Shown: positions 1-13,071, counted from the stretch's first letter. The stretch is 24,000 bases of DNA from Gammaproteobacteria bacterium (GCA_009937525.1 JAACFE010000029.1:1778-25777), one strand, 5' to 3'. Made by a program: numbers and translations. The notes: generated by a model from the sequence alone, not told the origin.

Positions 1-1485
1 GTCGACAGGATCGACGTAGACCTTATCGATCGTCTCCCCCGTGCGCCCCTTGAAGGCGGTCCTGAACGTCGCCCGCATGCCGGTCGACACCGCGAGATAC
101 GCCGAAGCGCGCCAGCGAACGGATTCGCCATCCTCTTCACCGCCTTCTTCGCCGCCGCCGTGGTGGCCACCGCCCGTGCACGGTGCCTTGCCCGCGTAGT
201 TCCAGAACAGGAAGTCGTCGAAGTCCTCCCCGGTTCTCGCGACGAGGTGCGTCCGCTTCGTCCGCGTGTCGTGGACGAAGATGCCCTGGTTGACCGGAAC
301 GTCTCGTACGGCATAGCAGCTGATCCCGTAGCTGGGATCGCTGGTGTCGTCACAGACGCTGCCCTCGTCGCCGATCGGCTCGTCCGCGCCCTCGCAGACC
401 AGTTCCTGGTTGCAATAGGCGATTCGATCCTTGTTGCCTTCGGTCGGGCAATACAGCTTGAGCGCGCGAGTCTCGTCGCCCCAGCCGCCCCAGAAGCCGA
501 CGTAGCGACCGTCGAAGGCGATGCCTTCGCCGAGCGCATTGAACTGGGCCTTGGTCGTGTCGCCGGGAACCCGCTGGCCGATGCTGACCAGCGTCGTGAG
601 TTTCGGCGAGTACGTGAGCGGCGCCATGTAGATGCCGCCTTGTGCCGGGTTGAGTTCGTCATCGAAACCGGCAAACACGACCTTGTGGTCGGCTGCGTTC
701 GGCGGCGCCGTCGAACCGAAGAACGTGTTGGTACCCGGAATCAGGGTCTCGGTGTTGGCAATCAGTATCGATGGGTGTGTTCCGCCGTGATCCTCCGGCA
801 ACAGGTGTCGGAAATAGACGCCGGTCTTTTCGGTACCACCACCCGTGTAGTTGCCCTTGAACGCGACGATATTGCCGTCCGTCACTGTCGGCGCACCCGG
901 GAATACTTCGAACGTCACGCCGTTATAGTCCGGTACGCCGAAGAAGCCGTACCCCGGTACGTGACCGAGCTTGGCGGCACCGGTGATCAGTTCACCGTGC
1001 GGGTTGCTGTAGATGCCCGTCGTACCAGCCCGCGTCTCGTCGTCGTCCGACCCGTATTGGTATACGGGCTGGTGGTTGCCGCGTGTCGCGATCGTGTTCG
1101 TGTGCATGTCGATGCGCGGGAACGACGGCGTCTCGACGAACGTCGAGCCCAGATTGTTCGGCTCCGGCACGGGTGATGTCCTGTCGAGTACACGGACGAT
1201 CTCGCTATCCGCAAGTCCCATGTCGCGCATGTAGATGCCGTGCGTCGCCGGCCCGAGTGGAGGCCCACCCCGGCTGCGCGCCCGCACGACAACCATACCC
1301 CTGGTGTTTACCGAGGGCGGGTTGTAGCTGTTGAAGTTTCGTGTCTCCAGAGGCGGCATCACATCACTGTTGTTTATGACGGTGTTCCATTGAAAGACGC
1401 TCTCCTTTTCGTCCGCGACTGCAGTGCTTGTCACTACCGTTGCCGCCACCAGCAGATACACGGATTTCATGTACCTGGGTTTCAT
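1..1485 (-). CDS. secreted protein of unknown function, N-terminal 495 codons only (C-terminus lies beyond the window start)
   Basis: Absent from the ORF track because it has no stop inside the window. ATG at 1485-1483 with AGGAGG 6 nt upstream. Hand translation gives MKPRYMKSVYLLVAATVVTSTAVA/DEKESVFQWNTV... I translated 1485-841, 540-481 and 250-1 in one frame. No complete minus-strand ORF is listed in this frame, so the frame is open to position 1. Signal peptide present. Recurring strand motifs: VNTRGMVVVRA, TDGNIVAFKG, FDGRYVGFWG. Internal GGGHHGGGEEGGEEDGE tract at about 124-175. Confidence 0.75.
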   Translation of the reverse strand, partial: MKPRYMKSVYLLVAATVVTSTAVADEKESVFQWNTVINNSDVMPPLETRNFNSYNPPSVNTRGMVVVRARSRGGPPLGPATHGIYMRDMGLADSEIVRVLDRTSPVPEPNNLGSTFVETPSFPRIDMHTNTIATRGNHQPVYQYGSDDDETRAGTTGIYSNPHGELITGAAKLGHVPGYGFFGVPDYNGVTFEVFPGAPTVTDGNIVAFKGNYTGGGTEKTGVYFRHLLPEDHGGTHPSILIANTETLIPGTNTFFGSTAPPNAADHKVVFAGFDDELNPAQGGIYMAPLTYSPKLTTLVSIGQRVPGDTTKAQFNALGEGIAFDGRYVGFWGGWGDETRALKLYCPTEGNKDRIAYCNQELVCEGADEPIGDEGSVCDDTSDPSYGISCYAVRDVPVNQGIFVHDTRTKRTHLVARTGEDFDDFLFWNYAGKAPCTGGGHHGGGEEGGEEDGESVRWRASAYLAVSTGMRATFRTAFKGRTGETIDKVYVDPVD

Positions 1486-1501
1486 GGCTGTCCTCCTGGT
1501 T

Positions 1502-1524
1502 CCCCGGGCCGTTACGGCCCGGGG
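1502..1524 (-). terminator. perfect 10-bp GC hairpin between two secreted-protein genes (possible terminator or processing site)
   Basis: CCCCGGGCCG-tta-CGGCCCGGGG at 1502-1524. It lies 44 nt after the stop at 1568 and 17 nt before the ATG at 1485. No U-tract follows on the minus strand, so intrinsic termination is uncertain. Confidence 0.3.
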
Positions 1525-1567
1525 GTTGTGCCTGCTGTCGTCAGCTGGCGTTGTTATCGAGAGCGGC

Positions 1568-3157
1568 CTAGTGACCGCCACCTCCGCCGGACGCCCTCAC
1601 ATTGGAAGTCGCAAAAGCGTCGTTGTTGCCCGGGTTCGGGTCTGTTCCCGGCGGTCCGGCGATAACCGTCGCGCTCCAGTCGATGGTTCTGCCGGACGTG
1701 TTGATCGTGAAGATCTGGGTAAAGGAAGCAGTTTCGCCCGCAGAGAGCTCTTCGATGTCGAAGACCCACTCTCCGAGTGTTCCTTCTGCACCGGTGGCAA
1801 CCACCGTAACGGTGCCAAAGGCCTCATCCGGACCCAGGTTGCCGACGTTGATGAAGAACTCCCTTTCACCGCCGTTCACGTAGTTCTTTGGCACCTGCAA
1901 GCCGGACTGCTCGCTGATCGCGAGGTCATACAGGATATCGCCTGAAGGTACACAAGGAACCGCGGTCCCATACAGATCCGCATTCGGAATCGGCCAGTCG
2001 TGCATGAAGTTGATCACCGCACGCGAGTCATCGGCCGCCACTGCGAATCCCCCGATGTTCTCGCCGTAATAAGTCGGATCGGCCATCAGTTCAGGTACGG
2101 CTGCGAGGATCGGTCCCTTCGCTATTTCGAAAGTGAGGGGTTCTGCCGTAAGAACCCGGAGGTACTCGAATATGCCTTCGTCTGTCTGATCAAACTCCGA
2201 CCAGATGTACGGCGGCGCGGGGAGTGCGCCAAACGTATCGGAACGGCTGTACGCATATCCCAGCACTCCGCCACCGTCGTCGTAGCTCGCGTAGTCCAGG
2301 AAGCACTTCTCTACCTGCTGGATCGTACCCTGCACCTCTTCCCGGTAGTTCTCGCATACCTTGGGAAGGATCGTCGGCGTGACGTCCAGACCCATGAGCA
2401 TGTTGAGATAGGCCACCATGTCCACGTTGAACTCGCCGCCCTTGTCAGAGGCGACGCCCAGTCCCCTGGCCGCGGTGTCCAGGACATCGGCATCTTCCGG
2501 CAGATCAACCCCGATGCTGCCCGTCATCATCAGTTGCCGGTAGACCGCCAGGTTCTGCAGCGGTGAGTCGATGGTGCTCGTTATCGTGTCCTCATCGTCT
2601 CCGCAGTTGCTGGCCACCATCCGTCCGGCGGGATCCAGGCTCGTGCTGTCGGCCGTGGCCAGTTTGACGACCACGTCCTCCAACTGGGCCTCGAATACCG
2701 ATTCAGGAGAGCGTGCCTCGTTGATACGGCCGAAGTCGACCTCGCGCGTATAGGCTCCGAAAAATGCCTCTACGGCACAGTTGTACTGGTCAACCGGAAT
2801 CAACCAGCCGCCGTCGACCGCTGTGCTTGCCGTGGGGACGACGACCCTGTCTTCCGGCTCGGTCCAACCGTCATACGAGAACTCTTCCTCCGCAAGGGGC
2901 TGCCAGCACTCTCCGCCCCAAACCGTCGCACCGGTTTCGGGATTCGGCACTTCGACCGGATCGGACGGGATGGGGACGCCATTGTCATAGCGATAGAGGA
3001 TGATGAGGTCCCCGAAGTCCGGGGCCCCTTCGTCGCCTCCACCGCCGCCCCCGTTGCCCCCGCCACCACCATGGCCCTGGGCGACGGCTGTGCCGCTCAG
3101 GCAGATAGCGCCGGCTGCGAGTGCGCTGAGTAAAGTAAGAAGCAGTTTAGTCTTCAT
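1568..3157 (-). CDS. secreted protein of unknown function with an N-terminal poly-Gly/His tract, a C-terminal CARDB-like domain and a GGGGGH C-terminus
   Basis: ORF 1568..3244. I prefer the internal ATG at 3157 because AAGGAGGTG lies 6 nt upstream. That start gives MKTKLLLTLLSALAAGAICLSGTAVA/QGHGGGGGNGGGGGGDEG, a clean signal peptide. The C-terminal roughly 100 aa (NVGNLGPDEAFGTVTVVATG...LSAGETASFT...DPNPGNNDAF) match my memory of the CARDB adhesion-domain pattern. The protein ends ...RASGGGGGH. Confidence 0.85.
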   Translation of the reverse strand: MKTKLLLTLLSALAAGAICLSGTAVAQGHGGGGGNGGGGGGDEGAPDFGDLIILYRYDNGVPIPSDPVEVPNPETGATVWGGECWQPLAEEEFSYDGWTEPEDRVVVPTASTAVDGGWLIPVDQYNCAVEAFFGAYTREVDFGRINEARSPESVFEAQLEDVVVKLATADSTSLDPAGRMVASNCGDDEDTITSTIDSPLQNLAVYRQLMMTGSIGVDLPEDADVLDTAARGLGVASDKGGEFNVDMVAYLNMLMGLDVTPTILPKVCENYREEVQGTIQQVEKCFLDYASYDDGGGVLGYAYSRSDTFGALPAPPYIWSEFDQTDEGIFEYLRVLTAEPLTFEIAKGPILAAVPELMADPTYYGENIGGFAVAADDSRAVINFMHDWPIPNADLYGTAVPCVPSGDILYDLAISEQSGLQVPKNYVNGGEREFFINVGNLGPDEAFGTVTVVATGAEGTLGEWVFDIEELSAGETASFTQIFTINTSGRTIDWSATVIAGPPGTDPNPGNNDAFATSNVRASGGGGGH

Positions 3158-3235
3158 AATGTCCACCTCCTTTGTATAGATCATCAGTGGTTGATGAAGA
3201 TGTAATCCCTCTATCGTGTAGTCTGCCGGTGTCCT

Positions 3236-3283
3236 GTTTCTCACGTATTTCCGAAGCGTGTGAAATTGTTACAGTGTGTTTCC
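3236..3283 (-). promoter_or_regulatory. copy 1 of the 48-bp four-half-site operator, facing the gene that starts at 3157
   Basis: Plus strand: GTTTC tcacgt ATTTC cgaagcgtgtgaaatt GTTACA gtgt GTTTCC. Same half-site offsets (0, 11, 32, 42) as the other three copies. 78 nt separate it from the ATG at 3157. Confidence 0.6.
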
Positions 3284-3401
3284 TGGAAGCCAGGTACGGG
3301 CGTTCGTTTGCGGAGGGCGGTTTCCGATAACGGGGCCGGGACGGACCGGCAGGACAATCAGGCGCCTGCGAGCCATTAACTGTTTTCGTTGATTCGTGGA
3401 G

Positions 3402-3431
3402 GGCCAGCGAGAACCTGCGCCCTCGCTGGCC
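3402..3431 (-). terminator. possible terminator hairpin downstream of the 3483..4871 gene
   Basis: GGCCAGCGAG-(10 nt loop)-CTCGCTGGCC, about 50 nt after the stop at 3483 on the minus strand. No clear U-tract. Confidence 0.3.
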
Positions 3432-3482
3432 GAAAGTGACGTGGTGCAAGCGCACCGCGCCACTCAGTCCTTCCAACTGCGG

Positions 3483-4871
3483 CTAGTGGTTGCCGCCACC
3501 GCGGCCGCCGCCACCGGTGTGGCTTGCGGCATCAGTCTGGGTCGCGGAATCGACGTGGCCACCACCACCACCTCCGCCGCCACCACCACCACCGGCGCCA
3601 ACGGCATCCCTCGCGACGATGCAAAGGTCGATGTAGCTAAGGTTGTAGGTGGAATTGACGACCGGAACATACAACGCCTCGGATTCACCGTCGTCGGGTA
3701 ATGCGATGGCCGTGTTGAATGCTGTCCGCGGAAGTTCGCGCACTTGCGCCGGCACTGCCGGCGGTGCGCTGACCGGCGCGTTCTCGTCGTCGAATACCAC
3801 CTCGTCACCCGGAGTGTAGAAGGTCAAACGCCACCAGCCGGTCTTCAACCACCCGGCGCCGCATACTGACTCGGTGTTGACGCTCTTCATTGGCCAGTTG
3901 TAACCGTAGACGTACTTGCCGCCGACGCTGAGCTCGACACTGTAGGGAGCATCCCGCCATGTGCAGGCGCCCTCCCAGTCCGAACCGGTCCACGTGCTCA
4001 GCACGGGCGCTCCGAGTTGCTGCACAACGACTTCGCCTTCGCCGTCTTCACCGCCACCGGGTTGCGGACACTCTGCGCTGTCCGGCTCCATCTTCGCGAT
4101 GTTCAGCCGTGCGTTGTCGGTCTTGATGATCTGGAATGGCGAGTCATAGTTGTATGACACCAATTCCTCGGCCCGCACGCCCCAATGCTCGCTTGTGCCC
4201 TGGCCGGACACGTGCCACATCTGGAAGCCCACCTTGCAGTCAGCCTCCGGGTCAGCACTCGCATTCTCACAGGTGCCGAGCGTGGGATCGAAACCTGGAA
4301 TGCGGCTGCTGTAAGGCTGGGTCTCGACACGAATCTGAGACCGCGATGTCCAGGACCTGGCTTCAAGGGCGTCACCCCAGTCCACATAGGCTACGGAGGC
4401 CGGACCATCTATGCCGTCCTCGTCAGCCCACCAGTCGTTGTCGACGACCTTCTGCCAGTAGATACGCGACACCGATTCACCGTAGCAGGGTGCATCGGTC
4501 GGCACGGTGCATTCTTCCGCATCCAGATAGAGAGTCGGTTTCATCAAGTCGTCCACGCAGGACGTATTGGGGTAGCTAAATGCTCCGGAGACCTCCTTTT
4601 TGTTGCAACCAAAGGAGTAGTGCTCGCCGCGCACGGAATCCGCAGGTGGACTCCAATTTGCCGGAATCGTGTTTGTCGTGTCTGTCAAATTCGCGGGCAG
4701 TGATAGGTTGTTCCCGGCCTCTTCCTCGCCACCACCCGGGCCGCCTTTGCACGGCGGGCCGCCCATGTCGATGCACCATTGAGGTGCGGCACTCGCCACG
4801 CCACCAAAGCCGACTACCATGGCCACGGCTGCGCCTGCCAGCGCAATCGATAAACGTTTGATAATCGTCAT
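3483..4871 (-). CDS. secreted Cys-rich protein of unknown function with a (Gly)12-His tract and a GGGNH C-terminus
   Basis: Full ORF in the track. AGGAGGG lies 6 nt upstream of the ATG at 4871. Signal peptide MTIIKRLSIALAGAAVAMVVGFGGVASA/APQW, followed by GGPPCKGGPGGGEEEAGNNLSLP. The C-terminus is AGGGGGGGGGGGGHVDSATQTDAASHTGGGGRGGGNH. I recognise no catalytic family. Confidence 0.85.
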   Translation of the reverse strand: MTIIKRLSIALAGAAVAMVVGFGGVASAAPQWCIDMGGPPCKGGPGGGEEEAGNNLSLPANLTDTTNTIPANWSPPADSVRGEHYSFGCNKKEVSGAFSYPNTSCVDDLMKPTLYLDAEECTVPTDAPCYGESVSRIYWQKVVDNDWWADEDGIDGPASVAYVDWGDALEARSWTSRSQIRVETQPYSSRIPGFDPTLGTCENASADPEADCKVGFQMWHVSGQGTSEHWGVRAEELVSYNYDSPFQIIKTDNARLNIAKMEPDSAECPQPGGGEDGEGEVVVQQLGAPVLSTWTGSDWEGACTWRDAPYSVELSVGGKYVYGYNWPMKSVNTESVCGAGWLKTGWWRLTFYTPGDEVVFDDENAPVSAPPAVPAQVRELPRTAFNTAIALPDDGESEALYVPVVNSTYNLSYIDLCIVARDAVGAGGGGGGGGGGGGHVDSATQTDAASHTGGGGRGGGNH

Positions 4872-5002
4872 TTTGATCCCTCCTGGATTCGGTATTTAAT
4901 GAGTCCCTTGCCTTTAACGGGCTTGCCTTTCGCTGCAACCTCACCTCCTTCCCATGTCCTGGGGCCTTCTTCAGGCCAGTGTATATATCCTGTCCGGGTC
5001 GT

Positions 5003-5050
5003 GTTTCTTACGTATTTCCGCGCGGCGCAAAATTGTTACAGTGTGTTACC
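5003..5050 (-). promoter_or_regulatory. copy 2 of the 48-bp operator, facing the gene that starts at 4871 and abutting the response-regulator start codon
   Basis: Plus strand: GTTTC ttacgt ATTTC cgcgcggcgcaaaatt GTTACA gtgt GTTACC. 131 nt separate it from the ATG at 4871. A TATATA hexamer at 4982-4987 lies 15 nt beyond half-site A on the minus strand and is a candidate -10. The element ends 1 nt before the regulator ATG at 5052. Confidence 0.6.
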
Positions 5051-5051
5051 T

Positions 5052-5789
5052 ATGGACGCTGGACGACGTGCGACTCACGCCAGCGATTCACATCTGCTGG
5101 TTGTGGACGACGACAGGGAGACCCGCGAGCTCCTGTCGCTTTACCTGGGGCAACAGGGTTTCGACGTTGCCGTCGTCGAGGACGGCAAGGCGATGGACGC
5201 CTGGCTTGCGGACAACTCCACCGACCTGGTCATACTGGACCTGATGCTCCCCGGCGAGGATGGACTGTCGATCGCGAGGCGCCTGCAGAGCGATCACAAG
5301 CTGCCTATCGTGATGATCTCGGCGCGAGGCGAGGAACTCGACCGCATCGTAGGACTCGAGGTCGGCGCGGACGATTACCTGCCCAAACCGTTCAATCCGC
5401 GCGAGCTGTTGGCGCGCATCCGGGCAGTGTTGCGCCGCAGCGGTATGTCCGACGAATCGGAATCCGACCGCGACGCAAGCTACAGATTCGGCGAATTCCG
5501 TTTCGACGATCAACGGCGCGTTTTGTACCGCGGCGCCGAGGACATCGATCTTTCGCGGGCGGAGTTCGACCTGCTACAGGTATTCGTGCACCACCCGAAC
5601 CGGGTGCTGAGCAGGGACCAGATCATGGACTGCCTCAGCGGCGGCGACCGGAATCCCTTCGACCGCAGCATCGACGTGCGTGTCACGCGCCTGAGACACA
5701 AGATAGAAGACGACCCCGCCGACCCGAAATTCATTCGCACGATCTGGGGCATCGGTTACCAGTTCACGCCGCGCGGAGACGCAACGTGA
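5052..5789 (+). CDS. OmpR-family response regulator (receiver plus winged-helix DNA-binding domain)
   Basis: HLLVVDDDRETRELL..., LVILDLMLPGEDG (Asp codon 5238-5240), PIVMISARGEELDRIVGLEVGADDYLPKPFNPRELLARIRAVLRR and SIDVRVTRLRHKIEDDPADPKFIRTIWGIGYQF closely parallel E. coli OmpR. I chose the start at ATG 5052. The 4899 start would add 51 non-homologous residues across the divergent promoter. No Shine-Dalgarno is visible. Confidence 0.9.
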   Translation: MDAGRRATHASDSHLLVVDDDRETRELLSLYLGQQGFDVAVVEDGKAMDAWLADNSTDLVILDLMLPGEDGLSIARRLQSDHKLPIVMISARGEELDRIVGLEVGADDYLPKPFNPRELLARIRAVLRRSGMSDESESDRDASYRFGEFRFDDQRRVLYRGAEDIDLSRAEFDLLQVFVHHPNRVLSRDQIMDCLSGGDRNPFDRSIDVRVTRLRHKIEDDPADPKFIRTIWGIGYQFTPRGDAT

Positions 5790-7276
5790 CAATTTATCCG
5801 CGTTCGCTGCTCGGTCGGACCGCGATTACGATCGCCCTCACGCTTCTCGCCTTCATGGCGATCTCGATGGCCGCCGCCGTGTATTTCGTATACAGCCCGA
5901 TGGCGAAACGGGCGGCAGACGATTTTGCCGCAGTCATAGTATCGGCCGCCCATTCACTGCAGAGCCTGCCTGTGGAGATGCACGGGGATCTCAAGAATCA
6001 GCTGATGCAGGATCACGGACTGATCGTCGCTGAACAACCATTCGAGTCAATCGAGACCACCTCGGAACTGCCTTTCTACCCGTTCTTCCATGAATCGCTC
6101 GATGAGAAGGCCGGCACAGACCTGCGCATTATCGAACCTGTGAACAGTCCGATCATCTGGGTGGACGTGCCCGCCCATGGCAAGGTATACAGGCTCGGCT
6201 TCGACAAGGAACGGCTGGGCACCAATCCGCCGGTCGTACTGATAATGGCGGTCGGCGTCGGTGCATTGCTTACCTTGATTGCAAGCCTGCTCGAAGTGCG
6301 CAGAGTTGTCCGGCCACTGAAGCAACTATCGGATGCCGTGAAGAAAGTGGCACGCGGAGGCGGCGTGCCGCAGATTCCCGAGGAGGGTCCGGAGGAGATC
6401 GCCAACCTCGCCCGAACTTTCAACCGCATGTCTTCCGACCTGCAGCAGCTGTCGGAAAACCGCACGGTGATGATCGCGGGCATCTCGCACGATCTTCGCA
6501 CGCCATTGACCCGCCTGGGCCTCGCGGTCGAGATGCTCGACGAGAACTCGAATCCCGAACTCATCGCACGAATTCGGCACAACCTCGATACGATGAACAA
6601 CCTGATCCGGCAGTTCCTGCAGTTCTCGCAAGGCGTCGAGGGCGAATGCCCGGTGCAGCTGGATCTCTGGCAGATGATCGAATCGCTTGCGGCCGATCTG
6701 AAGCTCGAAGGTTCCGAGCTGGTACTTCACCGAAGGGATCCTCCCTGCGTCTACTTCGCCGACGTCGTCGCCCTCGAGCGCGTCCTGGCGAATCTGCTGA
6801 AGAACGCGGCGCAGCACGGAATGGGGAAGCCCATCAACATCAGCCTGCACTGCAACGACGAAGAGGTTGCTATCGAAATAGCCGATCGCGGACCTGGCAT
6901 TCCACCCGAGGAAGTTCAGGCCGTGTTCCGGCCATTCCACCAGCTCGGATCAGAACGCGCTCAACCGTCCGAAGGTAGCGGTCTCGGTCTCGCCATAGCA
7001 AACCAGCTCGCGTTGAAACACAACTGGACCATCCAGCTGCTGCCTCGGGATGGTGGAGGGACAGTGGCCAAACTCTCCCTCCCGCCGGGGCAGCGCTTCG
7101 GGCTATGCGGATCTTCAGCGCAGCGCGGGCAGATATCGCTTAACCTGCAGGCCGGCGCCCCAGTCGGCGCCGCTGTCGGTGAATCCCTTGAAGACGAAGC
7201 CCTGCAGACGCCAGTCAGCGCTGATGCGGTTCGACAGGAAGACACTGAGCTCCTGAGTCGGGTCGGCACCGATTGA
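5786..7276 (+). CDS. EnvZ-like sensor histidine kinase (2 TM, periplasmic domain, HAMP, HisKA, HATPase_c)
   Basis: GTG at 5786 overlaps the regulator stop (GTGA). TM1 is TAITIALTLLAFMAISMAAAVYFVY and TM2 is PPVVLIMAVGVGALLTLIASLL. H-box ISHDLRTPLTRL (His codon 6488-6490), N-box LLKNAAQHG, G1 DRGPGIP, G2 GSGLGLAIA. There is no in-frame stop until 7276, so a tail of about 60 aa overlaps the convergent OMP gene. Confidence 0.88.
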   Translation: MTIYPRSLLGRTAITIALTLLAFMAISMAAAVYFVYSPMAKRAADDFAAVIVSAAHSLQSLPVEMHGDLKNQLMQDHGLIVAEQPFESIETTSELPFYPFFHESLDEKAGTDLRIIEPVNSPIIWVDVPAHGKVYRLGFDKERLGTNPPVVLIMAVGVGALLTLIASLLEVRRVVRPLKQLSDAVKKVARGGGVPQIPEEGPEEIANLARTFNRMSSDLQQLSENRTVMIAGISHDLRTPLTRLGLAVEMLDENSNPELIARIRHNLDTMNNLIRQFLQFSQGVEGECPVQLDLWQMIESLAADLKLEGSELVLHRRDPPCVYFADVVALERVLANLLKNAAQHGMGKPINISLHCNDEEVAIEIADRGPGIPPEEVQAVFRPFHQLGSERAQPSEGSGLGLAIANQLALKHNWTIQLLPRDGGGTVAKLSLPPGQRFGLCGSSAQRGQISLNLQAGAPVGAAVGESLEDEALQTPVSADAVRQEDTELLSRVGTD

Positions 7277-7909
7277 CGATTCGCGGTAGTCGAAGAACAT
7301 GCCGGCTCTCGTGTGCCCATTGAATTTGTAGATGCCGCCTGCCGAGGCCAGTAGCGCGTCGTCGAGCACCGCGCCGGGCGGTTGCCCGCGGAATTTGTAG
7401 CCGATCGAGCCTATCCAGGTGACACGGTCTGAGAACTTGAGAAAATCGGCCAGGACCGTGAAATCATTCTCGCCGGTTCCGAGACCCTTGTCGACGTCGG
7501 CCGTGCCGAACTTGACCTTGCCGGTGAGGTCCATTGCAAAGCCGAGTCGCCGATTGCGAATAACATCGTAGACCGTCACGGCGGCGATCACGTCGCCGAT
7601 GCCGCTGTTCGTAACGATGTCCCCGCTACCGGGGATCGGTTCGCCGCCCGGACCCGTGATTACGGTTCCCGCGGGCGCCCTCACGCTAAGGTACGGAACT
7701 GTCAGGCGAAACGACAGCCGGCTGAAGTCCATCGTGGCCTTCAGCGGCACGTAAAAGTCCTCGATCTCGGTGTCGCCGCCGTAGGTGCCCGTCGTATATT
7801 CCGCGCCGGCAGAGAGCGAGAACCGTGGTCCTTCGTCCTGCGCCGCCACCGTCGTACCGGCAAGCAGGATCAGGCAGCCGAGCAATGGACTGTTCTGTAT
7901 TAACTTCAT
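7115..7909 (-). CDS. outer-membrane beta-barrel protein (resembles the 'transporter / MetA-pathway of phenol degradation' OMP type; family assigned from memory)
   Basis: ORF 7115..7957. I prefer the internal ATG at 7909 because GGGAGA lies 5 nt upstream. That start gives MKLIQNSPLLGCLILLAGTTVAAQ/DEG, a signal peptide. The longer form would begin inside the terminator hairpin at 7929-7951. Alternating hydrophobic strands rich in Gly and aromatics throughout (FSLSAGAEYTTGTYGG, LSFRLTVPYLSV, WIGSIGYKF, GGIYKF). Confidence 0.75.
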   Translation of the reverse strand: MKLIQNSPLLGCLILLAGTTVAAQDEGPRFSLSAGAEYTTGTYGGDTEIEDFYVPLKATMDFSRLSFRLTVPYLSVRAPAGTVITGPGGEPIPGSGDIVTNSGIGDVIAAVTVYDVIRNRRLGFAMDLTGKVKFGTADVDKGLGTGENDFTVLADFLKFSDRVTWIGSIGYKFRGQPPGAVLDDALLASAGGIYKFNGHTRAGMFFDYRESSIGADPTQELSVFLSNRISADWRLQGFVFKGFTDSGADWGAGLQVKRYLPALR

Positions 7910-7983: not shown

Positions 7984-8631
7984 TTATTCGGCCTCCTCTA
8001 TGTCGAGCTTGAGGGCTTTTGCCCTAAGCTCCATTTGCTCACGATGCTGTGCCTGAAACTTTTCGCGTTCCTTTTCCGAGTCCATGTGGCGCAGCTGTTC
8101 GCGATACTGATTTCGCTCCTGCACAGTCATTAGTCCGCTGCCATAAATGGCTCCCTGGCCGGGAGGCACGAGGTCCTCACCCTGCAATTGCGCACGTTCC
8201 TGCATCTTTGATTCATGCTGAATCTGGAAGTGTTCGCGAGCCTGGTTGGTCTCCATATTCATGAGCTGATTACGATATTGCTTCAGCTCTTCTTCGCTCA
8301 TCAACGTGCTGCCGTAGATGTCTTCGTCCCGCAGGCTCGCCGGGTCGGTGACATGCAGACGGTCACGATCCTGGACGCGGTCCCGGTCCTGGTCCTGATC
8401 GTGTCCCCTAGACTGATCGCGATCGCGATCCTTGGAGTCGGCCATTGTGTAGTCCCTGTCACGATCCCGGTCCTGGTCCATATCGCGGTCGTAGGTGTAG
8501 TCACGATCCTGATCCATCTGTCGGTCACGGTCACCGCTTCCACCGCTCTGTCCGTGCTGTGCGCCAACGGCCATGAACATGAGCGCCACTATCGACGTCA
8601 GGATGATGCTGATAGATAGTCTGTGTCTCAT
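7984..8631 (-). CDS. periplasmic protein with an Asp-Arg (DRDRDQ) low-complexity region and two tandem helical modules of about 46 aa
   Basis: AAGGAGG upstream of the ATG at 8631. Signal peptide MRHRLSISIILTSIVALMFMAVGA/QHGQSGG. Residues 33-91 are almost entirely D, R and Q. Two repeats, IYGSTLMSEEELKQYRNQL...FQIQHESKMQERA and IYGSGLMTVQERNQYREQL...FQAQHREQMELRA, match at 22 of 46 positions in my hand alignment. Confidence 0.8.
   Translation of the reverse strand: MRHRLSISIILTSIVALMFMAVGAQHGQSGGSGDRDRQMDQDRDYTYDRDMDQDRDRDRDYTMADSKDRDRDQSRGHDQDQDRDRVQDRDRLHVTDPASLRDEDIYGSTLMSEEELKQYRNQLMNMETNQAREHFQIQHESKMQERAQLQGEDLVPPGQGAIYGSGLMTVQERNQYREQLRHMDSEKEREKFQAQHREQMELRAKALKLDIEEAE
8359..8535 (-). 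repeat. coding low-complexity repeat (imperfect GTCRCGATCCYGGTCC-like units encoding DRDRDQDRD)
   Basis: Recurring strings on the plus strand: gtcacgatcctgg (8362), gtcccggtcctggtcctgatc (8380), gatcgcgatcgcgatcc (8415), gtcacgatcccggtcctggtcc (8458), gtcacgatcctgatcc (8500). Confidence 0.7.
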
Positions 8632-8824: not shown

Positions 8825-9954
<1,130 letters not shown>

Positions 9955-9958
<4 letters not shown>

Positions 9959-10554
9959 TCGACGAAGGCTATACAAAATACGAATGCGACTGGGTGCAGA
10001 CACCGGCCTTGCCGGTCGACGCTGTCGCGGAACTCAATGCGTGGCGCAACCGCTTGCATCAGCAAGGACTCATCGGCTACTACCCGGAGCACGGCGTCGG
10101 TTACGGCAACGTCAGCATCCGCGTGGGCGATTCGGACCGGTTCATCATCAGCGGCACGCAGACCGGCCACATTGAAGAGACCGATGAAACACACTACGGC
10201 CTGGTCGTCCGCTGCGACATCGGCGGCAACCGGGTGCACTGCGAAGGGCCGGTGCAGGCCTCATCCGAGGCCCTGACGCATGCTGCGATCTACGCGCTCG
10301 ATCCGGCGATTCGCGCCGTGGTCCACGTGCACGATATGGCCTTGTGGCACGAACTCATGGACAGAATCCCGACGACGTCGCGGCAGATTTCGTACGGCAC
10401 GCCGGAAATGGCGATCGAATTCCGTCGACTTTACGACGAGACCGATTTCGCGGCACGGGGCATTGCCGTCATGGGCGGTCACGAGGAAGGAATCGTTTCG
10501 TTCGGCCTCGACATCGAGCAGGCTGCGCAGCGCGTGCTGCAACGCCGGGACTGA
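9955..10554 (+). CDS. class II aldolase/adducin-fold protein (MtnB-like dehydratase or Ald2/DrdA-like aldolase; the sequence does not let me decide)
   Basis: The ATG at 9955 overlaps the mtnA stop (ATGA). GYGNVSIRVGDSDRFIISGTQTG...GPVQASSEALTHAAIYALDPAIRAVVHVHD fits the class II aldolase fold pattern: GN-S-R...ISG...PSSE...H..IY...AV.H.H. Confidence 0.85.
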
Positions 10555-10584: not shown

Positions 10585-11451
10585 CTACAGGTACACCGCG
10601 GGTGTAACAACATGGGAGATACCAGCCTCGCGCAACCTTGCGGCAGCCCTTTCTACACCTGCCTTCGGCATCTTCTCCCACTCGAGTGCCTTCGGTCGGA
10701 CGCCGTGGTGCTGAAAAGCATTGAGCTTGACCCGAACGTCGCCGCCGAGCGTTCTGACGAAATTGATCAGTCCGTCGAGTTCTTCGTCGCTATCCGTTAC
10801 TCCGGGAACCAGCAGGAAACGCAGTTCGTAGAGTTTTCCAGCTTCGTGCAGAAAGCGAGCTGACTGCAGGCTCTTTTGGTGCCCTTTGCCCGTCAGGTTG
10901 CGGTGGACGTCGTCGTCAAAGCTCTTGATATCGATCATGACGCCGTCGGTAACCGGCAACAGCGACTCCCACCCGGCCGCGCCGAGATGACCGTTGCTGT
11001 CGATGAGGCAGTCGAGCCCTGCCAGCTCGGCGTCCGACTTGATCGCCTCGAACAGGGCGATGATGAACCCGATTTGCCTGGTCGGCTCACCGCCCGACAC
11101 CGTAACCCCGGACAGGAACGGCAAGTGCTCGCGGATCAGCTCGAGGATGTCGGATACCCTATATTCGCGGACCATCGGATTGGCGTCGATCGGGCAGGCT
11201 TCGAGACAGTCGTCGCACAGGTCGCAGGTCAGCGGGTCGAAGACGATCCGCCCGTCCACCAGCGACAGTGCGTCCGCGTGACAGGCTGGAACGCATTCAC
11301 CGCAGTGATTACACTCGCCGATGGTATGGGGATTGTGGCAGGCCGTGCAGTTGAAGTTACAACCCTGCAGGAAGATCACGAACCGGTTGCCCGGCCCGTC
11401 TACGATCGAATAGGCGAGTACCTTACTGACCGTAGCCCGGGGAGAGTTCAT
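10585..11451 (-). CDS. yjjW: glycyl-radical enzyme activating protein, YjjW family (radical SAM with two extra ferredoxin-type clusters)
   Basis: VDGPGNRFVIFLQGCNFNCTACHNP contains the CX3CX2C radical-SAM motif. It is followed by CNHCGECVPAC and CDLCDDCLEAC (two CX2CX2CX3C motifs) and by VTVSGGEP, the SAM-binding GGE. The gene overlaps the 3' end of the glycyl-radical enzyme gene by 29 nt. Confidence 0.9.
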   Translation of the reverse strand: MNSPRATVSKVLAYSIVDGPGNRFVIFLQGCNFNCTACHNPHTIGECNHCGECVPACHADALSLVDGRIVFDPLTCDLCDDCLEACPIDANPMVREYRVSDILELIREHLPFLSGVTVSGGEPTRQIGFIIALFEAIKSDAELAGLDCLIDSNGHLGAAGWESLLPVTDGVMIDIKSFDDDVHRNLTGKGHQKSLQSARFLHEAGKLYELRFLLVPGVTDSDEELDGLINFVRTLGGDVRVKLNAFQHHGVRPKALEWEKMPKAGVERAAARLREAGISHVVTPAVYL

Positions 11452-12958
11452 TGCCCACCACGCGTGGCTTCCGGTCGAGTATGCCGGTCATGTCGGCAGC
11501 TTCCGCCCCGAGCACTGTCGTGTTCGTGCGGGAGCCCTGTCGGTCGTTGAACTTCCGAATATCCGAAAGCCGGACCATGTAGCCGGTAACCCGCACGAGG
11601 TCGTTGCTGGCGACGTTCACCGTGAACTCGCGGAAGCCACTGGCAAAAGCGCCCTTGCACAACTGCACCAGCGCTTCCGGATTGTTCGTGACGCTCTCGT
11701 CCACCGTGAGTATCTCGCTGATCCCCGCATCGTAATACTGATGATGCGGCGCGAGCGCCTGCACGTGCGTCACCGGGTCCGGCTCGGTGCCATAGGGGAT
11801 GCGGACGCCGGGCGTCGCATCGACGTCGTCGCTGAGCCCCGCCTGCGAGTGCAGCAATGCGTGGCCACGCCAGACTTTGTCGAGACGCCGCTTGCGCACA
11901 GCCTTCGCGAGTGTTTCCGAGATCCTGTGGCCGAGCGCATTCGCTTCTTCATCGAATCCGTAGCGGCCATCGCGTCTTTCCTTGTCTTGCAGAACGTTGA
12001 CCGCTTCCGCCATGGCAAAGACGCCGAACATCGCGGTAAACCGTTCCTTCTCGATCCAGCCTTCCTTCACGAGGAAGCTGTCGAAGAATCCGGACCCGTC
12101 GAAGAGGTAGTCGATGCGCGCCTCAGTGAGACGGAAATTGAGTTCGAGGAAATAAGGCAGGGTGTCCTCGAAGAATTCCCGCTCGCTACCGGATCGGTTC
12201 GCGACTTCTTTCAGGTTGACGCGCGTAAGCGTGGATGCGCCTCCTGCCACCGGCAGCACGTTGTAACAGCTGACGATACCGTAGCCACGCGCGTCAAATG
12301 CATCGGCATGTACCACGTGGTTGGCGATGTGGGGCTTGCAGCACTCCGCGATATTCTTTCCGGCTATCACGAGAATCTCGTCGCCGCTGATCTCCGGGTC
12401 GTAGAGCAACGTGAGATTGGGTGCTATTTGCTTCAGCTCCGCGTCAACGCGCAGGATCGCGCGCGCGACGCGGTTGTCGGTCGGGCCGATGTTCGCGTGC
12501 ATGAACGCATCGGGCAATGTGCGGTCCAGGTAACGCCAGAAAAGCCTGATCTTCTCGTAAAGCGTCTCATCGCAAACGCCATCGCAGAACGGCAGCAGCA
12601 ACTCGTCGAGCTGGCCGATATAGACGGGCATGCCTGTCACCGACGGGACGTGGTGGTAAGCGATCATCAGGGTGTTGATAGCTTCGTCGAGCGTGACAGG
12701 TAGCGGCAACTCCAGGTACTCGCTGCCGTTTCGCATCAGAACGCTGTAATCCGGCAGAACATAGCGTGGCTTGTACGGTGCATGGCCTTCGAACATGTCG
12801 CAGATAACCCGCTCATCGAGTGCTTTTTGGGTTTCGGCATCGAGAGCCGGATAGCCCAGCATGTTCTCGGCTTCGAGCGATAGGTAGCGCGCTTTCTGCG
12901 CGGGGCTTAGCGTCGCGTCGTTAGTGATGCTGCGTAGCTTGCGGAGAGTGTCCTGCAT
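11423..12958 (-). CDS. yjjI: YjjI-family glycyl-radical enzyme (function unknown)
   Basis: ORF 11423..13102. I prefer the ATG at 12958 because GGAGCG lies 6 nt upstream. That start gives MQDTLRKLRSITNDATLSPAQKARYLSLEAENMLGYP. Length is 511 aa. The C-terminal glycyl-radical motif DLVRVTGYMVR has its Gly codon at 11582-11584. The gene is paired with a YjjW-type activase, as in E. coli yjjI-yjjW. Confidence 0.88.
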   Translation of the reverse strand: MQDTLRKLRSITNDATLSPAQKARYLSLEAENMLGYPALDAETQKALDERVICDMFEGHAPYKPRYVLPDYSVLMRNGSEYLELPLPVTLDEAINTLMIAYHHVPSVTGMPVYIGQLDELLLPFCDGVCDETLYEKIRLFWRYLDRTLPDAFMHANIGPTDNRVARAILRVDAELKQIAPNLTLLYDPEISGDEILVIAGKNIAECCKPHIANHVVHADAFDARGYGIVSCYNVLPVAGGASTLTRVNLKEVANRSGSEREFFEDTLPYFLELNFRLTEARIDYLFDGSGFFDSFLVKEGWIEKERFTAMFGVFAMAEAVNVLQDKERRDGRYGFDEEANALGHRISETLAKAVRKRRLDKVWRGHALLHSQAGLSDDVDATPGVRIPYGTEPDPVTHVQALAPHHQYYDAGISEILTVDESVTNNPEALVQLCKGAFASGFREFTVNVASNDLVRVTGYMVRLSDIRKFNDRQGSRTNTTVLGAEAADMTGILDRKPRVVGNELSPGYGQ

Positions 12959-13071
12959 GGTGTCGCTCCGGTGCGTGGTGCCGACCATCTCTATTCTAGC
13001 TGAAATCCGAAACAGATCGGTTCGCCAGCTCGCGCTATCATCGGGTCTCCCTGCCTGCACCGGAGAGCACC

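What the first reader, a model, noticed from the sequence alone, without database searches (positions are those of the whole stretch)
1..4871. Three tandem genes for large secreted proteins with poly-Gly/His tracts and Gly(n)-x-His C-termini
The proteins from 1568-3157 and 3483-4871 share a design without obvious sequence similarity to each other. Each has a signal peptide, then an acidic Gly-rich linker (QGHGGGGGNGGGGGGDEG and GGPPCKGGPGGGEEEAG), then a large domain with no catalytic motif I recognise. Both end in Gly runs that terminate in His: ...ASGGGGGH-COOH, and ...G12-HVDSATQTDAASHTGGGGRGGGNH-COOH.

The third gene (1-1485, truncated by the window edge) carries GGGHHGGGEEGGEEDGE internally.

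If the signal peptide of the 1568-3157 protein is cut after AVA, the mature N-terminus is Q-G-H. That is the X-X-His arrangement of ATCUN Cu(II)/Ni(II) sites, and Gly-Gly-His is the classic small-peptide chelator.

Two of these genes carry the 48-bp operator. The terminal Gly-His motif could be a metal-binding tail or a new sorting or processing signal. Both readings are speculation.
Basis: partly seen in the sequence, partly recalled or inferred. Interest (0 to 1): 0.7.

Follow-up and report, generated by a model that had tools for sequence, protein, structure and literature searches.

The report
Secreted proteins with conserved oligoglycine tails
Three co-regulated exported proteins of a marine-sediment gammaproteobacterium belong to large uncharacterised families, two of which almost always end in a run of glycines capped by one to three polar or basic residues; this tail is under selection and undescribed, and it looks more like a docking or anchoring tail than a dedicated metal site.

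Summary
Three minus-strand genes (C 1-1485, A 1568-3157, B 3483-4871) encode Sec-exported, Cys-containing proteins with Gly-rich termini. A and B each carry a copy of a direct-repeat operator next to a divergent OmpR/EnvZ-like pair.

The Gly tails are not drift. 111/120 A homologues and 117/120 B homologues keep them, with synonymous codon changes. ASGGGGGH is invariant in the 24 closest A clusters. Among ORFs of 81 loci, such tails occur almost only in A and B.

The conserved unit is [K/R]-x-x-Gly(4+) plus a variable cap. His is the commonest cap, at about one third. The ATCUN-like QGH is not conserved: 20 of those 24 clusters have QGQ. Gene C orthologues have no Gly tail.

The bulk of A and all of B match no Pfam family and no PDB sequence or fold. 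Only A's C-terminal CLIPPER/CARDB Ig domain is known. A and C are neighbours in about 49 of 78 loci across several phyla.

Some relatives carry SLH, PASTA, T9SS or PEP-CTERM-like modules where the tail would be. I therefore favour a localisation or docking tail (confidence 0.4). Metal binding, a cleaved transpeptidation signal and a passive spacer remain open. Function is unproven.

The parts
1..1485 (-). Gene C, 5' part (495 of about 586 codons). Exported protein with signal peptide aa 1-24 (nt 1414-1485). Likely beta-propeller-like, inferred only from sub-threshold repeat-family hits.
   Evidence: Translation. Weak DUF7453 (21.3 bits, cut-off 26.2) and NxxGxxAF repeat (29.2 bits, cut-off 50) hits. 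Full-length orthologues. It follows gene A in about 49 of 78 loci.
109..180 (-). Gene C internal loop CTGGGHHGGGEEGGEEDGESVRWR (Cys-x-Gly3-His plus an acidic cluster).
   Evidence: The C[TVL]GGGH(H/S)...acidic...RWR pattern is kept in 17 of 39 full-length C proteins from several phyla.
1502..1524 (-). GC-rich hairpin CCCCGGGCC-GTAAC-GGCCCGGGG between the gene A stop and the gene C RBS. No T-run follows it.
   Evidence: No minus-strand terminator was found. A and C are probably co-transcribed.
1568..3157 (-). Gene A (529 aa): signal peptide, acidic Gly linker, novel domain of about 370 aa, one CLIPPER/CARDB Ig domain and an oligoglycine-His tail.
   Evidence: At least 411 homologue clusters, all unnamed. 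AF2 model pLDDT 84.9. Only the Ig domain matches the PDB.
1571..1591 (-). Gene A C-terminal tail SGGGGGH (five mixed Gly codons, then CAC and TAG).
   Evidence: ASGGGGGH is invariant in the 24 closest clusters. It is disordered in the AF2 model.
1607..1888 (-). Gene A CLIPPER (DUF11, PF01345) / CARDB-like Ig domain, aa 424-517.
   Evidence: Pfam score 27.5 bits against a cut-off of 24.6. 43 of 48 family members match. Foldseek matches CARDB structure 3idu.
3020..3157 (-). Gene A signal peptide (nt 3080-3157) and acidic Gly linker QGHGGGGGNGGGGGGDEGAP (nt 3020-3079).
   Evidence: The AF2 model shows an N-terminal helix and then a disordered stretch to residue 49. The linker varies among close orthologues.
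3223..3284 (-). Operator copy upstream of gene A: GAAACAcacTGTAACAattt-N10-GGAAATAcgtgaGAAACA, four direct half-sites at steps of about 10, 21 and 11 nt.
   Evidence: 79% identity to the second copy. Conserved upstream of A in L003, L004, L036, L038, L042, L047 and L074.
3483..4871 (-). Gene B (462 aa): signal peptide (nt 4788-4871), linker APQWCIDMGGPPCKGGPGGGEEEAG (nt 4713-4787), novel Cys- and Trp-rich beta domain and a long Gly tail.
   Evidence: At least 391 homologue clusters and 486 representatives at 50% identity. AF2 model pLDDT 81.1. No PDB fold or sequence match and no Pfam family.
3486..3599 (-). Gene B C-terminal tail GAG12-HVDSATQTDAASHTGGGGRGGGNH.
   Evidence: It is disordered in the AF2 model. 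Near-identical database copies are 460 and 461 aa, which points to Gly-run length polymorphism. The H.D..TQTD..SH insert is shared by a sub-clade.
4990..5051 (-). Second operator copy, upstream of gene B and abutting the response-regulator start codon.
5052..5789 (+). OmpR-family response regulator, divergent from gene B.
   Evidence: Pfam Response_reg plus Trans_reg_C. Best NCBIfam hit is OmpR at 283.7 bits, below the equivalog cut-off of 331.
5786..7276 (+). EnvZ-like sensor histidine kinase. Its GTG start overlaps the regulator's stop codon.
   Evidence: HAMP, HisKA and HATPase_c domains. Best NCBIfam hit is EnvZ at 236.3 bits, below the cut-off of 415. Start codon checked.

Best explanation
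The three genes form a recurrent module of Sec-exported envelope or surface proteins.

The proteins:
- A and C are the conserved core pair.
- B, or a distant B-like gene, joins them in some genomes.
- A is a new domain of about 370 aa followed by one CLIPPER/CARDB Ig domain.
- B is a new Cys-rich beta domain.
- C resembles DUF7453 and NxxGxxAF-repeat proteins.

Regulation: in this lineage (closest related loci are Woeseiaceae MAGs) the module sits under a local OmpR/EnvZ paralogue. A four-half-site direct-repeat operator is present once before A-C and, duplicated, before B.

The conserved design at the protein ends is not Gly-x-His. It has two parts:
1. A Gly/Pro-rich arm directly after the signal peptide, clearly acidic in A (net negative in 96/118) and only weakly so in B (47/111).
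2. A C-terminal tail of the form [K/R]-x-x-Gly(4 to more than 12)-cap. The cap is one to three polar or cationic residues: His in about one third, otherwise Arg/Lys-Pro, Asn-Pro-Asn, Arg-Arg, Lys-His and similar.

Proposed mechanism (inferred): the tail is a localisation or docking arm. It is a flexible oligoglycine leash, and from established protease specificities it should resist most proteases. It presents a cationic or imidazole end group. This group holds the protein on an anionic envelope component or on a partner, for example the conserved acidic loops of C.

The tail occupies the position that SLH, PASTA, T9SS or PEP-CTERM-like modules take in other members of the same families.

Shown here: conservation, exclusivity, selection at the amino-acid level, charge asymmetry, alternative anchors and co-regulation. 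Inferred: what the tail binds and where the proteins end up.
For: Conservation of the tail:
- 111/120 A and 117/120 B homologues keep it.
- 69/113 full-length representatives of the deep B superfamily keep it.
- ASGGGGGH is invariant in the 24 closest A clusters, while the N-linker of the same proteins varies in length and sequence.
- Gly runs use mixed GGC/GGT/GGA codons with synonymous differences between orthologues.

Specificity:
- 37 of the 38 Gly-tailed ORFs in 81 loci are A or B.
- A basic residue sits at position -3 before the run in 86/111 A and 84/116 B, although the two domains are unrelated.

Charge pattern:
- N-linkers are net acidic in 96/118 A.
- Tails are net basic or His-bearing in 84/111 A, and net positive in 95/117 B.
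- In deep B relatives, G(n)-H-x-E and G(n)-K-P-P-V-E alternate at the same linker position. His and Lys-Pro are therefore interchangeable.

Alternative anchors:
- SLH domains are inserted in B (P0225, P0226, P0240, P0356). P0240 and P0356 have lost the tail, and in P0226 it is reduced to GGGD.
- A plus PASTA occurs without a tail (P0111).
- A B-like domain carries a T9SS sorting domain at 57.1 bits against a cut-off of 23 (P0454).
- A PEP-CTERM-like end is seen in P0446.
- Giant Big_2 adhesin-like proteins end in a B-like subdomain plus a Gly tail.
- CLIPPER is a hallmark of cell-surface proteins (PMC12617251).

Export: signal peptides and conserved Cys residues.

Module: A is followed by C in about 49 of 78 loci across Gammaproteobacteria, Desulfobacterota, Acidimicrobiia and Acidobacteriota. 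B-like genes sit beside them in L018, L021, L037 and L081.

Co-regulation.

Possible docking site: C has conserved acidic clusters.
Against: - There is no experimental localisation.
- A's tail is only 6-7 residues, which is short for a leash.
- Caps are heterogeneous, and a few are acidic (GGGGEGE, GGGGGE).
- The tail has no hydrophobic segment or fixed motif of the kind known sorting signals have.
- No conserved processing or anchoring enzyme lies near A.
- The families occur in MAGs assigned to both Gram-negative (diderm) and Gram-positive-type (monoderm) phyla, so no single envelope target is obvious.
- AF2 leaves the tails disordered and undocked.
- The anchor-replacement argument rests on fewer than ten proteins. 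One SLH-bearing member (P0225) keeps its tail.
- B usually stands alone, without A-C nearby.
Confidence: 0.4

Rival explanations
1. Metal-binding arms. Gly runs next to His (C-terminal G5-H and GGGNH, the predicted mature N-terminus Q-G-H, and CxGGGH in C) capture Cu(II), Ni(II) or Zn(II). Binding would use the imidazole plus deprotonated Gly amides, as in GGH/ATCUN peptides and the prion HGGGW repeat. The arms would hand the metal to, or buffer it for, the folded domains.
For: - His is the commonest final residue in both families (40/120 and 36/120). It recurs in separate lineages of Gammaproteobacteria and Desulfobacterota.
- One B sub-clade adds H.D..TQTD..SH and ...DDHGDH ends.
- Stand-alone relatives of A's N-domain have long Gly/Ser/His/Asp-rich linkers. 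66 of 95 contain His, for example QQHGGGGHGGGGGGGHG.
- At least 25 of 99 of these relatives have AxA|X-X-His at the predicted signal-peptidase site.
- C keeps a CxGGGH-acidic loop in 17 of 39 proteins.
- Gene A has only three His residues. Two are at the predicted mature ends and the third is the invariant H386.
Against: - About two thirds of tails have no His, and Lys/Arg-Pro caps replace it freely. A cationic cap would repel metal cations.
- QGH is found in only 3 of the 24 closest A clusters.
- Only 5 of 113 linkers in the A family contain His.
- An N-terminal Gln can cyclise to pyroglutamate and block an ATCUN site (established chemistry).
- No metal-homeostasis genes are conserved next to the module.
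- The two-component system resembles OmpR/EnvZ more than the CusRS/CopRS type.
Confidence: 0.2
2. A cleaved sorting or transpeptidation signal. An unidentified peptidase or transpeptidase removes the 1-3-residue cap as a leaving group. It then joins the exposed Gly end to an amine, such as peptidoglycan, a Lys side chain or the N-terminal Gly arm of another subunit. Analogues are ubiquitin precursors (GG-X), butelase (N|HV) and sortase (LPXT|G).
For: - The same tail grammar occurs on two unrelated families, with a strictly kept Gly run and a freely varying short cap.
- It is near-exclusive to these families.
- It is largely mutually exclusive with known anchor modules.
- The same proteins carry N-terminal Gly-rich arms that could act as acceptors.
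Against: - No candidate enzyme is conserved within 7 kb on either side of A in 78 loci or near B.
- There is no hydrophobic helix or basic cluster as in all described sortase-type signals.
- The predicted mature N-termini are Gln, Ala or Glu, not Gly.
- B's tails vary from 4 to 58 residues.
- The families occur in phyla with very different envelopes.
- No literature precedent was found.
Confidence: 0.12
3. Passive low-complexity ends. The Gly stretches are disordered spacers or protease-resistant caps with no specific ligand. They are kept because they are harmless or because they protect the termini. Their length drifts by codon-repeat slippage.
For: - AF2 predicts disorder.
- B's tails and both N-linkers vary widely in length and sequence.
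- Near-identical B copies differ by one or two Gly residues.
- Caps have no single consensus.
Against: - An exact five-Gly-plus-His tail is invariant across the 24 closest clusters, down to about 64% identity, while the neighbouring folded strand and the N-linker vary.
- The tail persists across phyla and in two unrelated families, with the same basic residue at -3.
- It is near-absent from all other ORFs of the same loci.
- Nothing follows the tail, so there is nothing for it to space.
Confidence: 0.18

Closest known systems
Sortase-type C-terminal sorting signals and 'choice-of-anchor' surface protein families (LPXTG, PEP-CTERM, GlyGly-CTERM, MYXO-CTERM, T9SS CTD)
   Same: It is a short module at the extreme C-terminus of Sec-exported proteins. 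Unrelated domain families share it. Within a family it is swapped for other anchors such as SLH, PASTA, T9SS or a PEP-CTERM-like end.
   Different: It lacks the signature motif, transmembrane helix and basic cluster of those signals. No cognate sorting enzyme lies in the neighbourhood. The tail can be as short as six residues. Cleavage has not been shown.
ATCUN / Gly-Gly-His and prion octarepeat (HGGGW) Cu(II)/Ni(II) sites; His-rich tails of metallochaperones (SlyD, UreE, HypB, ZinT)
   Same: A Gly run lies directly next to His in a disordered terminal segment. X-X-His is predicted at the mature N-terminus of gene A and of many stand-alone relatives. As with chaperone tails, the feature varies between orthologues.
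   Different: The His is at the C-terminal end, not third from a free amine. It is absent from two thirds of tails and is replaced by Lys/Arg-Pro. Gene A has a single His per tail. No metal genes lie nearby.
CLIPPER (DUF11, PF01345) / CARDB Ig-like domains of fibrillar adhesins
   Same: Gene A's residues 424-517 score above the Pfam threshold and superpose on CARDB structure 3idu. The D..N..NN signature is invariant. The domain marks cell-surface proteins (PMC12617251).
   Different: There is a single copy at the C-terminal end of a globular protein of about 500 aa, not a tandem stalk. Whether an isopeptide bond forms is unknown.
OmpR/EnvZ regulons with tandem direct-repeat OmpR boxes
   Same: The regulator and kinase have the same domain architecture, and OmpR and EnvZ are their best hits. 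The operator has four G(A/T)AA(C/T)A half-sites in helical phase.
   Different: Scores fall below the equivalog cut-offs, so this is a paralogue. The signal it senses is unknown. Its targets are the A-C operon and B rather than porins.
Braun lipoprotein-type covalent tethering through a C-terminal Lys
   Same: Many deep B-family tails end in Lys, for example ...GGGKKK and ...GGGRK. PASTA and SLH variants point to association with the cell wall.
   Different: Most tails end in His, Pro, Arg or Asn. There is no lipobox. No L,D-transpeptidase link was tested.

Membership tests
Pfam PF01345 CLIPPER/DUF11 (gene A, aa 424-517) | Score at or above the Pfam gathering threshold | tested here: met
   27.5 bits against a cut-off of 24.6. 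43 of 48 family members match.
Pfam PF01345 CLIPPER/DUF11 (gene A, aa 424-517) | Ig-like beta-sandwich fold | tested here: met
   The AF2 model has pLDDT above 90 in this region. Foldseek matches CARDB 3idu with TM-score (target) 0.68-0.71.
Pfam PF01345 CLIPPER/DUF11 (gene A, aa 424-517) | Intramolecular Lys-Asn isopeptide with a catalytic Asp/Glu (present in only some members, per PMC12617251) | tested here: inconclusive
   K424, E433 and the invariant N511/N512 are present. Model coordinates could not be inspected.
Pfam PF24251 DUF7453 (gene C) | Score at or above the gathering threshold | tested here: not met
   21.3 bits against 26.2 for the window fragment. The full-length orthologue from L003 gives no hit at E<=1.
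NCBIfam TIGR05002 NxxGxxAF 'choice-of-anchor' repeat (gene C) | Score at or above the curated cut-off | tested here: not met
   29.2 bits against 50, with a single repeat matched.
Sortase/exosortase/rhombosortase-type C-terminal sorting signals | Tripartite signal: signature motif, hydrophobic transmembrane helix and basic cluster | tested here: not met
   The tails are about 70% Gly with no hydrophobic stretch. No NCBIfam or Pfam sorting-domain hit was found for A or B.
Sortase/exosortase/rhombosortase-type C-terminal sorting signals | Cognate processing enzyme co-occurs | tested here: inconclusive
   None is conserved within 7 kb on either side of A in 78 loci. Whole-genome co-occurrence could not be tested.
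ATCUN metal site | Free N-terminal amine with His at position 3 of the mature protein | tested here: inconclusive
   AVA|QGH is predicted from the sequence, but the cleavage site is not shown experimentally. N-terminal Gln may cyclise. Only 3 of the 24 closest clusters keep His.
ATCUN metal site | Cu(II)/Ni(II) binding | not testable with these tools
   This needs spectroscopy or ITC.
OmpR / EnvZ (NCBIfam equivalogs NF007005, NF007004) | Score at or above the equivalog cut-off | tested here: not met
   283.7 bits against 331, and 236.3 bits against 415. The domain architecture itself is met.

The most novel reading that the evidence does not exclude
'[K/R]-x-x-oligoGly-cap' is a new class of C-terminal recognition tag for exported proteins. 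It evolved convergently on at least two unrelated domain families across several bacterial phyla. It is read by a partner not yet identified. That partner is either a docking site (for example on the co-encoded protein C) or a transpeptidase that removes the variable cap and ligates the Gly end. Either way it gives a sortase-independent route for fixing proteins in the envelope.
Probability: 0.2. Interest if true: 0.8.

Novelty: new variant of a known kind. Interest (0 to 1): 0.55.

Why it matters
- Both families are large. A has at least 411 clusters, B has at least 391 clusters at 90% identity, and the B superfamily has 486 representatives at 50% identity.
- They are spread over sediment and soil lineages. 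These include Woeseiaceae, Methylococcales, Desulfuromonadales, Desulfobulbaceae, Acidimicrobiia and Acidobacteriota. Cultured carriers include Desulfopila aestuarii, Geopsychrobacter electrodiphilus, Methylomonas and a Shewanella strain.
- Every named copy listed is called 'hypothetical protein', apart from a few JGI B homologues labelled 'uncharacterized membrane protein YgcG'. The main domains have no Pfam family, no solved relative and no detectable PDB fold.
- A short terminal tag shared by unrelated exported proteins is how LPXTG, PEP-CTERM and similar sorting systems were first recognised. If this tail is read by a partner, it would define a new localisation route and could be a compact tag for protein engineering.
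- If the tail instead binds metal, it points to an unrecognised extracytoplasmic metal-handling module in environmentally abundant bacteria.
- The finding also gives a clean, testable regulon: one OmpR-like regulator, a defined operator and two target promoters.

Tried and rejected
Searches that gave nothing:
- Pfam and NCBIfam on A, B and C and on 48 and 45 family members. Only CLIPPER/CARDB in A reached threshold, with sub-threshold hits in C.
- Profile searches of PDB sequences. Nothing meaningful was found.
- Foldseek against the PDB. A matches only through its Ig domain, and B has no match with E<0.1.
- Literature searches for polyglycine or oligoglycine tails, DUF7453 and Gly-His periplasmic proteins. 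No description of such bacterial tails was found.

Hypotheses rejected:
- Homology between A and B. hhalign aligns only the signal peptide and linker, and the C-terminal subdomains give E of 0.04 or higher.
- A conserved neighbouring enzyme. All-against-all clustering of 2,672 ORFs around A in 78 loci recovers only A, C, two-component genes and antisense artefacts.
- Informative context for B and for stand-alone A-domain proteins. Their neighbourhoods are variable.
- Within-genome co-variation of A and B termini. L018 shares CDDGTRPPC in both proteins, but L021 and L037 do not, and the caps do not co-vary.
- DNA slippage as the sole cause of the Gly runs, because codons are mixed and differ synonymously between orthologues.
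- ATCUN as a family feature.

Method note: my first signal-peptidase site heuristic cut too early. I replaced it with a context check.

Full report
**1. What is in the sequence**

All three genes lie on the minus strand.

Gene A (1568-3157, 529 aa):
- It starts at an ATG seven bases after a GGAGG.
- Its signal peptide is MKTKLLLTLLSALAAGAICLSGTAVA, followed by the linker QGHGGGGGNGGGGGGDEGAP.
- It ends ...NVRASGGGGGH.

Gene B (3483-4871, 462 aa):
- Its signal peptide ends VASA, followed by the linker APQWCIDMGGPPCKGGPGGGEEEAG.
- Its tail is twelve Gly, then HVDSATQTDAASHTGGGGRGGGNH.

Gene C (1-1485):
- This is the 5' 495 codons of a gene of about 586 codons.
- It has a signal peptide and the internal loop CTGGGHHGGGEEGGEEDGE.

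A 62-nt element is repeated at 79% identity upstream of A (3223-3284) and upstream of B (4990-5051).

There is one caveat. The C-terminus of gene C is outside the window, and none of 39 full-length C proteins ends in a Gly run.

**2. The Gly termini are selected, not drift**

Family sizes:
- Gene A has at least 411 homologue clusters and gene B at least 391. Every named A copy is 'hypothetical protein'. So are the named B copies, apart from a few JGI entries labelled 'uncharacterized membrane protein YgcG'.
- An exhaustive profile search finds 486 representatives of the B superfamily at 50% identity.

Conservation:
- Among the 120 best hits of each family, 111 (A) and 117 (B) have a Gly run in the C-terminal tail.
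- 69 of 113 full-length deep B representatives still have one.
- In the 24 closest A clusters (100 to about 64% identity), the last eight residues ASGGGGGH are invariant. The N-terminal linker of the same proteins varies in length and sequence.
- The runs use mixed GGC/GGT/GGA codons that differ synonymously between orthologues.

Specificity: of all ORFs of at least 150 aa in 81 fetched loci, 38 end with four or more Gly in the last 15 residues. Of these, 35 are A, 2 are B and 1 is a small B-like protein.

Counter-observation: B's first Gly run is length-polymorphic between near-identical copies of 460, 461 and 462 aa. Length is therefore loosely constrained in B and tightly constrained in A.

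**3. What exactly is conserved**

It is not Gly(n)-x-His.
- The final residue is His in 40/120 A and 36/120 B homologues. That is the plurality and it recurs in separate lineages.
- Pro (after Arg, Lys or Asn), Arg, Asn and Lys make up most of the rest.

The shared grammar of the two families:
- A basic residue sits three positions before the run, in 86/111 A and 84/116 B.
- Four or more Gly residues follow.

Charge pattern:
- Tails are net basic or His-bearing in 84/111 A, and net positive in 95/117 B.
- The linkers after the signal peptide are net acidic in A (96/118). In B the bias is weaker: 47 of 111 are negative and 47 are neutral.

Interchangeable elements:
- The same linker variants appear in both families: GGIPGPP-x-GG(G/E) and C-x-D-G-x-x-P-P-C.
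- In deep B relatives the linker often ends G(n)-H-x-E or G(n)-K-P-P-V-E just before the conserved NNLS(Y/F)P. His and Lys-Pro are thus interchangeable at both ends of these proteins.
- I read this as the cap acting as a cation or hydrogen-bond donor rather than strictly as a metal ligand.

ATCUN: the QGH arrangement occurs in only 3 of the 24 closest A clusters. Twenty have QGQ and one has QGK.

**4. What the proteins are**

Gene A:
- AF2 model: mean pLDDT 84.9, with the linker and tail disordered.
- It consists of an alpha/beta domain of about 370 residues and a C-terminal Ig domain.
- The Ig domain passes the Pfam threshold for CLIPPER/DUF11 (27.5 bits against 24.6). It superposes on the CARDB domain 3idu.
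- CLIPPER is characteristic of cell-surface proteins (PMC12617251).
- The large domain has no Pfam family, no PDB sequence relative and no Foldseek match.
- It carries invariant motifs (GR....RSP..V, IDSPL.NLA.Y, AADD.R.V..F.H).

Gene B:
- AF2 model: mean pLDDT 81.1. It is a beta-rich domain.
- Ten Cys and many Trp residues are invariant.
- No Pfam family or PDB sequence match was found. The best Foldseek match has E of 0.1.

A and B are unrelated apart from the signal peptide and linker.

Gene C gives only sub-threshold hits to DUF7453 and the NxxGxxAF 'choice-of-anchor' repeat.

All three have conserved Cys residues and signal peptides. They therefore work outside the cytoplasm.

**5. Genomic context**

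- A relatives were found in 78 genome loci. The lineages include:
  - Gammaproteobacteria: Woeseiaceae, Chromatiales, Methylococcales, Thiotrichaceae and a Shewanella strain.
  - Desulfobacterota: Desulfuromonadales, Desulfobulbaceae and Desulfopila aestuarii DSM 18488.
  - Acidimicrobiia.
  - Acidobacteriota.
- C directly follows A in about 49 of these loci.
- A distant B-like gene lies between or beside A and C in L018, L021 and L037. A small B-like gene ending in G10-RK precedes an A-like gene in an Actinomycetes MAG, L081.
- B itself usually stands alone in variable contexts.
- No other gene family is conserved near A; in particular there is no peptidase or transpeptidase.
- The OmpR/EnvZ-like pair, an outer-membrane beta-barrel gene and a gene for an Asp/Arg-rich exported protein accompany A-C in seven related loci (L003, L036, L038, L042, L047, L074 and the window); only L038 and L047 are labelled Woeseiaceae.
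- In that clade and in L004, the sequence GAAACAcacTGTAACAattt-N10-GGAAATAcgtaaGAAACAcgac is conserved upstream of A. It holds four direct half-sites at steps of about 10, 21 and 11 nt.
- From my own knowledge, this layout is typical of tandem OmpR-family binding.
- The closest relative, L003, has the regulator directly next to A and has no B. In the window's lineage, B therefore sits there with its own copy of the operator. A second MAG, GCA_041557895.1, has the same B-A-C order.
- A GC-rich hairpin without a T-run lies between A and C.

**6. Evidence on function**

(a) A choice-of-anchor pattern:
- B-family members with SLH domains inserted in a loop lack the tail (P0240, P0356) or have it reduced to GGGD (P0226). 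One (P0225) keeps it.
- An A member with PASTA and an extra Ig domain lacks the tail (P0111).
- A Bacteroidota-type B-like protein ends in a T9SS sorting domain (P0454; 57.1 bits against a cut-off of 23).
- Another ends in a PEP-CTERM-like sequence (P0446; 17.8 bits against 20.7).
- Three proteins end in a short hydrophobic segment; two of them (P0365, P0366) carry InlB-type repeats before it.
- Giant Big_2 adhesin-like proteins end in a B-like subdomain plus a Gly tail.
- This places both families at the cell envelope or surface. It also puts the tail where anchors normally sit.

(b) Hints of metal binding:
- The A N-domain also exists as a stand-alone secreted protein of about 400 aa. At least 448 such clusters were found, in Alphaproteobacteria, Rhodanobacter and Actinomycetes. 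They have no CLIPPER domain and no Gly tail.
- Their linkers are long and Gly/Ser/His/Asp/Lys-rich, and 66 of 95 contain His.
- At least 25 of 99 have AxA|X-X-His at the predicted cleavage site. Examples are QSH, QTH, QKH, QQH and DSH.
- C keeps its CxGGGH-acidic loop in 17 of 39 proteins.
- One B sub-clade, including the window, inserts H.D..TQTD..SH in the tail.

(c) Points against a dedicated metal role:
- Two thirds of tails lack His.
- Cationic caps substitute for His.
- Only 5 of 113 A-family linkers contain His.
- No metal-homeostasis genes are linked to the module.

**7. Verdict**

- The best-supported reading is a localisation or docking tail on a co-regulated set of exported proteins (confidence 0.4).
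- The rivals are metal-binding arms (0.2), passive low-complexity ends (0.18) and a cleaved transpeptidation signal (0.12).
- None can be settled without experiments.
- The tail fails the defining tests for sortase-type sorting signals, having no hydrophobic helix and no cognate enzyme nearby. It should therefore not be filed with them, although it may work like an anchor.
- I found no description of such tails in the searched literature.
- The feature is real, widespread and undescribed, but its function is inferred. Hence a moderate-to-good interest score.

**8. Limits**

- Signal-peptide cleavage sites are predicted by eye and by a simple heuristic, not by SignalP.
- Counts of homologues are not phylogenetically independent.
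- The anchor-replacement argument rests on fewer than ten proteins.
- Whole-genome co-occurrence, and whether B-carrying genomes also have A-C, could not be tested.

Noticed in passing
Proteins P0241-P0355; related to window 1889-3019: The N-terminal domain of gene A also exists as a stand-alone secreted protein of about 400 aa in Alphaproteobacteria, Rhodanobacter and Actinomycetes. These proteins have long Gly/Ser/His/Asp/Lys-rich linkers such as QQHGGGGHGGGGGGGHG. At least 25 of 99 have AxA|X-X-His (an ATCUN-type arrangement) at the predicted signal-peptidase site. Two carry RTX (HemolysinCabind) repeats.
   Followed up: partly
window 7984-8631 (-) and 7115-7909 (-): An exported 215-aa protein has a DRDRDQ-rich low-complexity half and two copies of an ...EE..QYR.QL..M....ERE.F..QH motif. 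From memory this resembles CpxP/Spy/ZraP. It is followed by a 264-aa predicted outer-membrane beta-barrel. Neither has a Pfam or NCBIfam family. Both travel with the OmpR/EnvZ-like pair in L003, L036, L038, L042, L047 and L074.
   Followed up: partly
window 1502-1524 (-): A GC-rich hairpin, CCCCGGGCC-GTAAC-GGCCCGGGG, lies directly before the gene C ribosome-binding site and has no T-run. It could be an mRNA processing, stability or attenuation element that sets the A:C ratio.
   Followed up: no
window 3553-3594: The first Gly run of gene B is encoded largely by (GGT)4 blocks. Database copies that are otherwise identical are 460 and 461 aa instead of 462, which points to slippage-type length polymorphism.
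   Followed up: partly
L018 13053-14855 and L021 13109-14911: In some gene C homologues the loop RARSxGG...HGIY is expanded to a run of up to 11 Gly before ..PIHG (RARSKGGGGGGGGGGGPIHGIY). Gly runs next to His therefore turn up in all three proteins of the module, at different positions.
   Followed up: no
P0365, P0366, P0370: These B-superfamily proteins (P0365 and P0366 also carry Flg_new_2/InlB repeats) end in a short hydrophobic motif (F/S)(P/S)W.(L/M)(Y/F)LP.I.... followed by a few polar residues. It looks like an uncatalogued C-terminal sorting signal. No NCBIfam model matches it.
   Followed up: no
window 10585-13102 (-), 8825-10554 (+), 13989-16376 (+): The rest of the window looks like ordinary chromosome. 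It holds a YjjI-like glycyl-radical enzyme with its radical-SAM activase, a methylthioribose-1-phosphate isomerase-like gene with a class II aldolase, and a TonB-dependent receptor with a CarboxypepD_reg domain. No link to the finding is evident.
   Followed up: no
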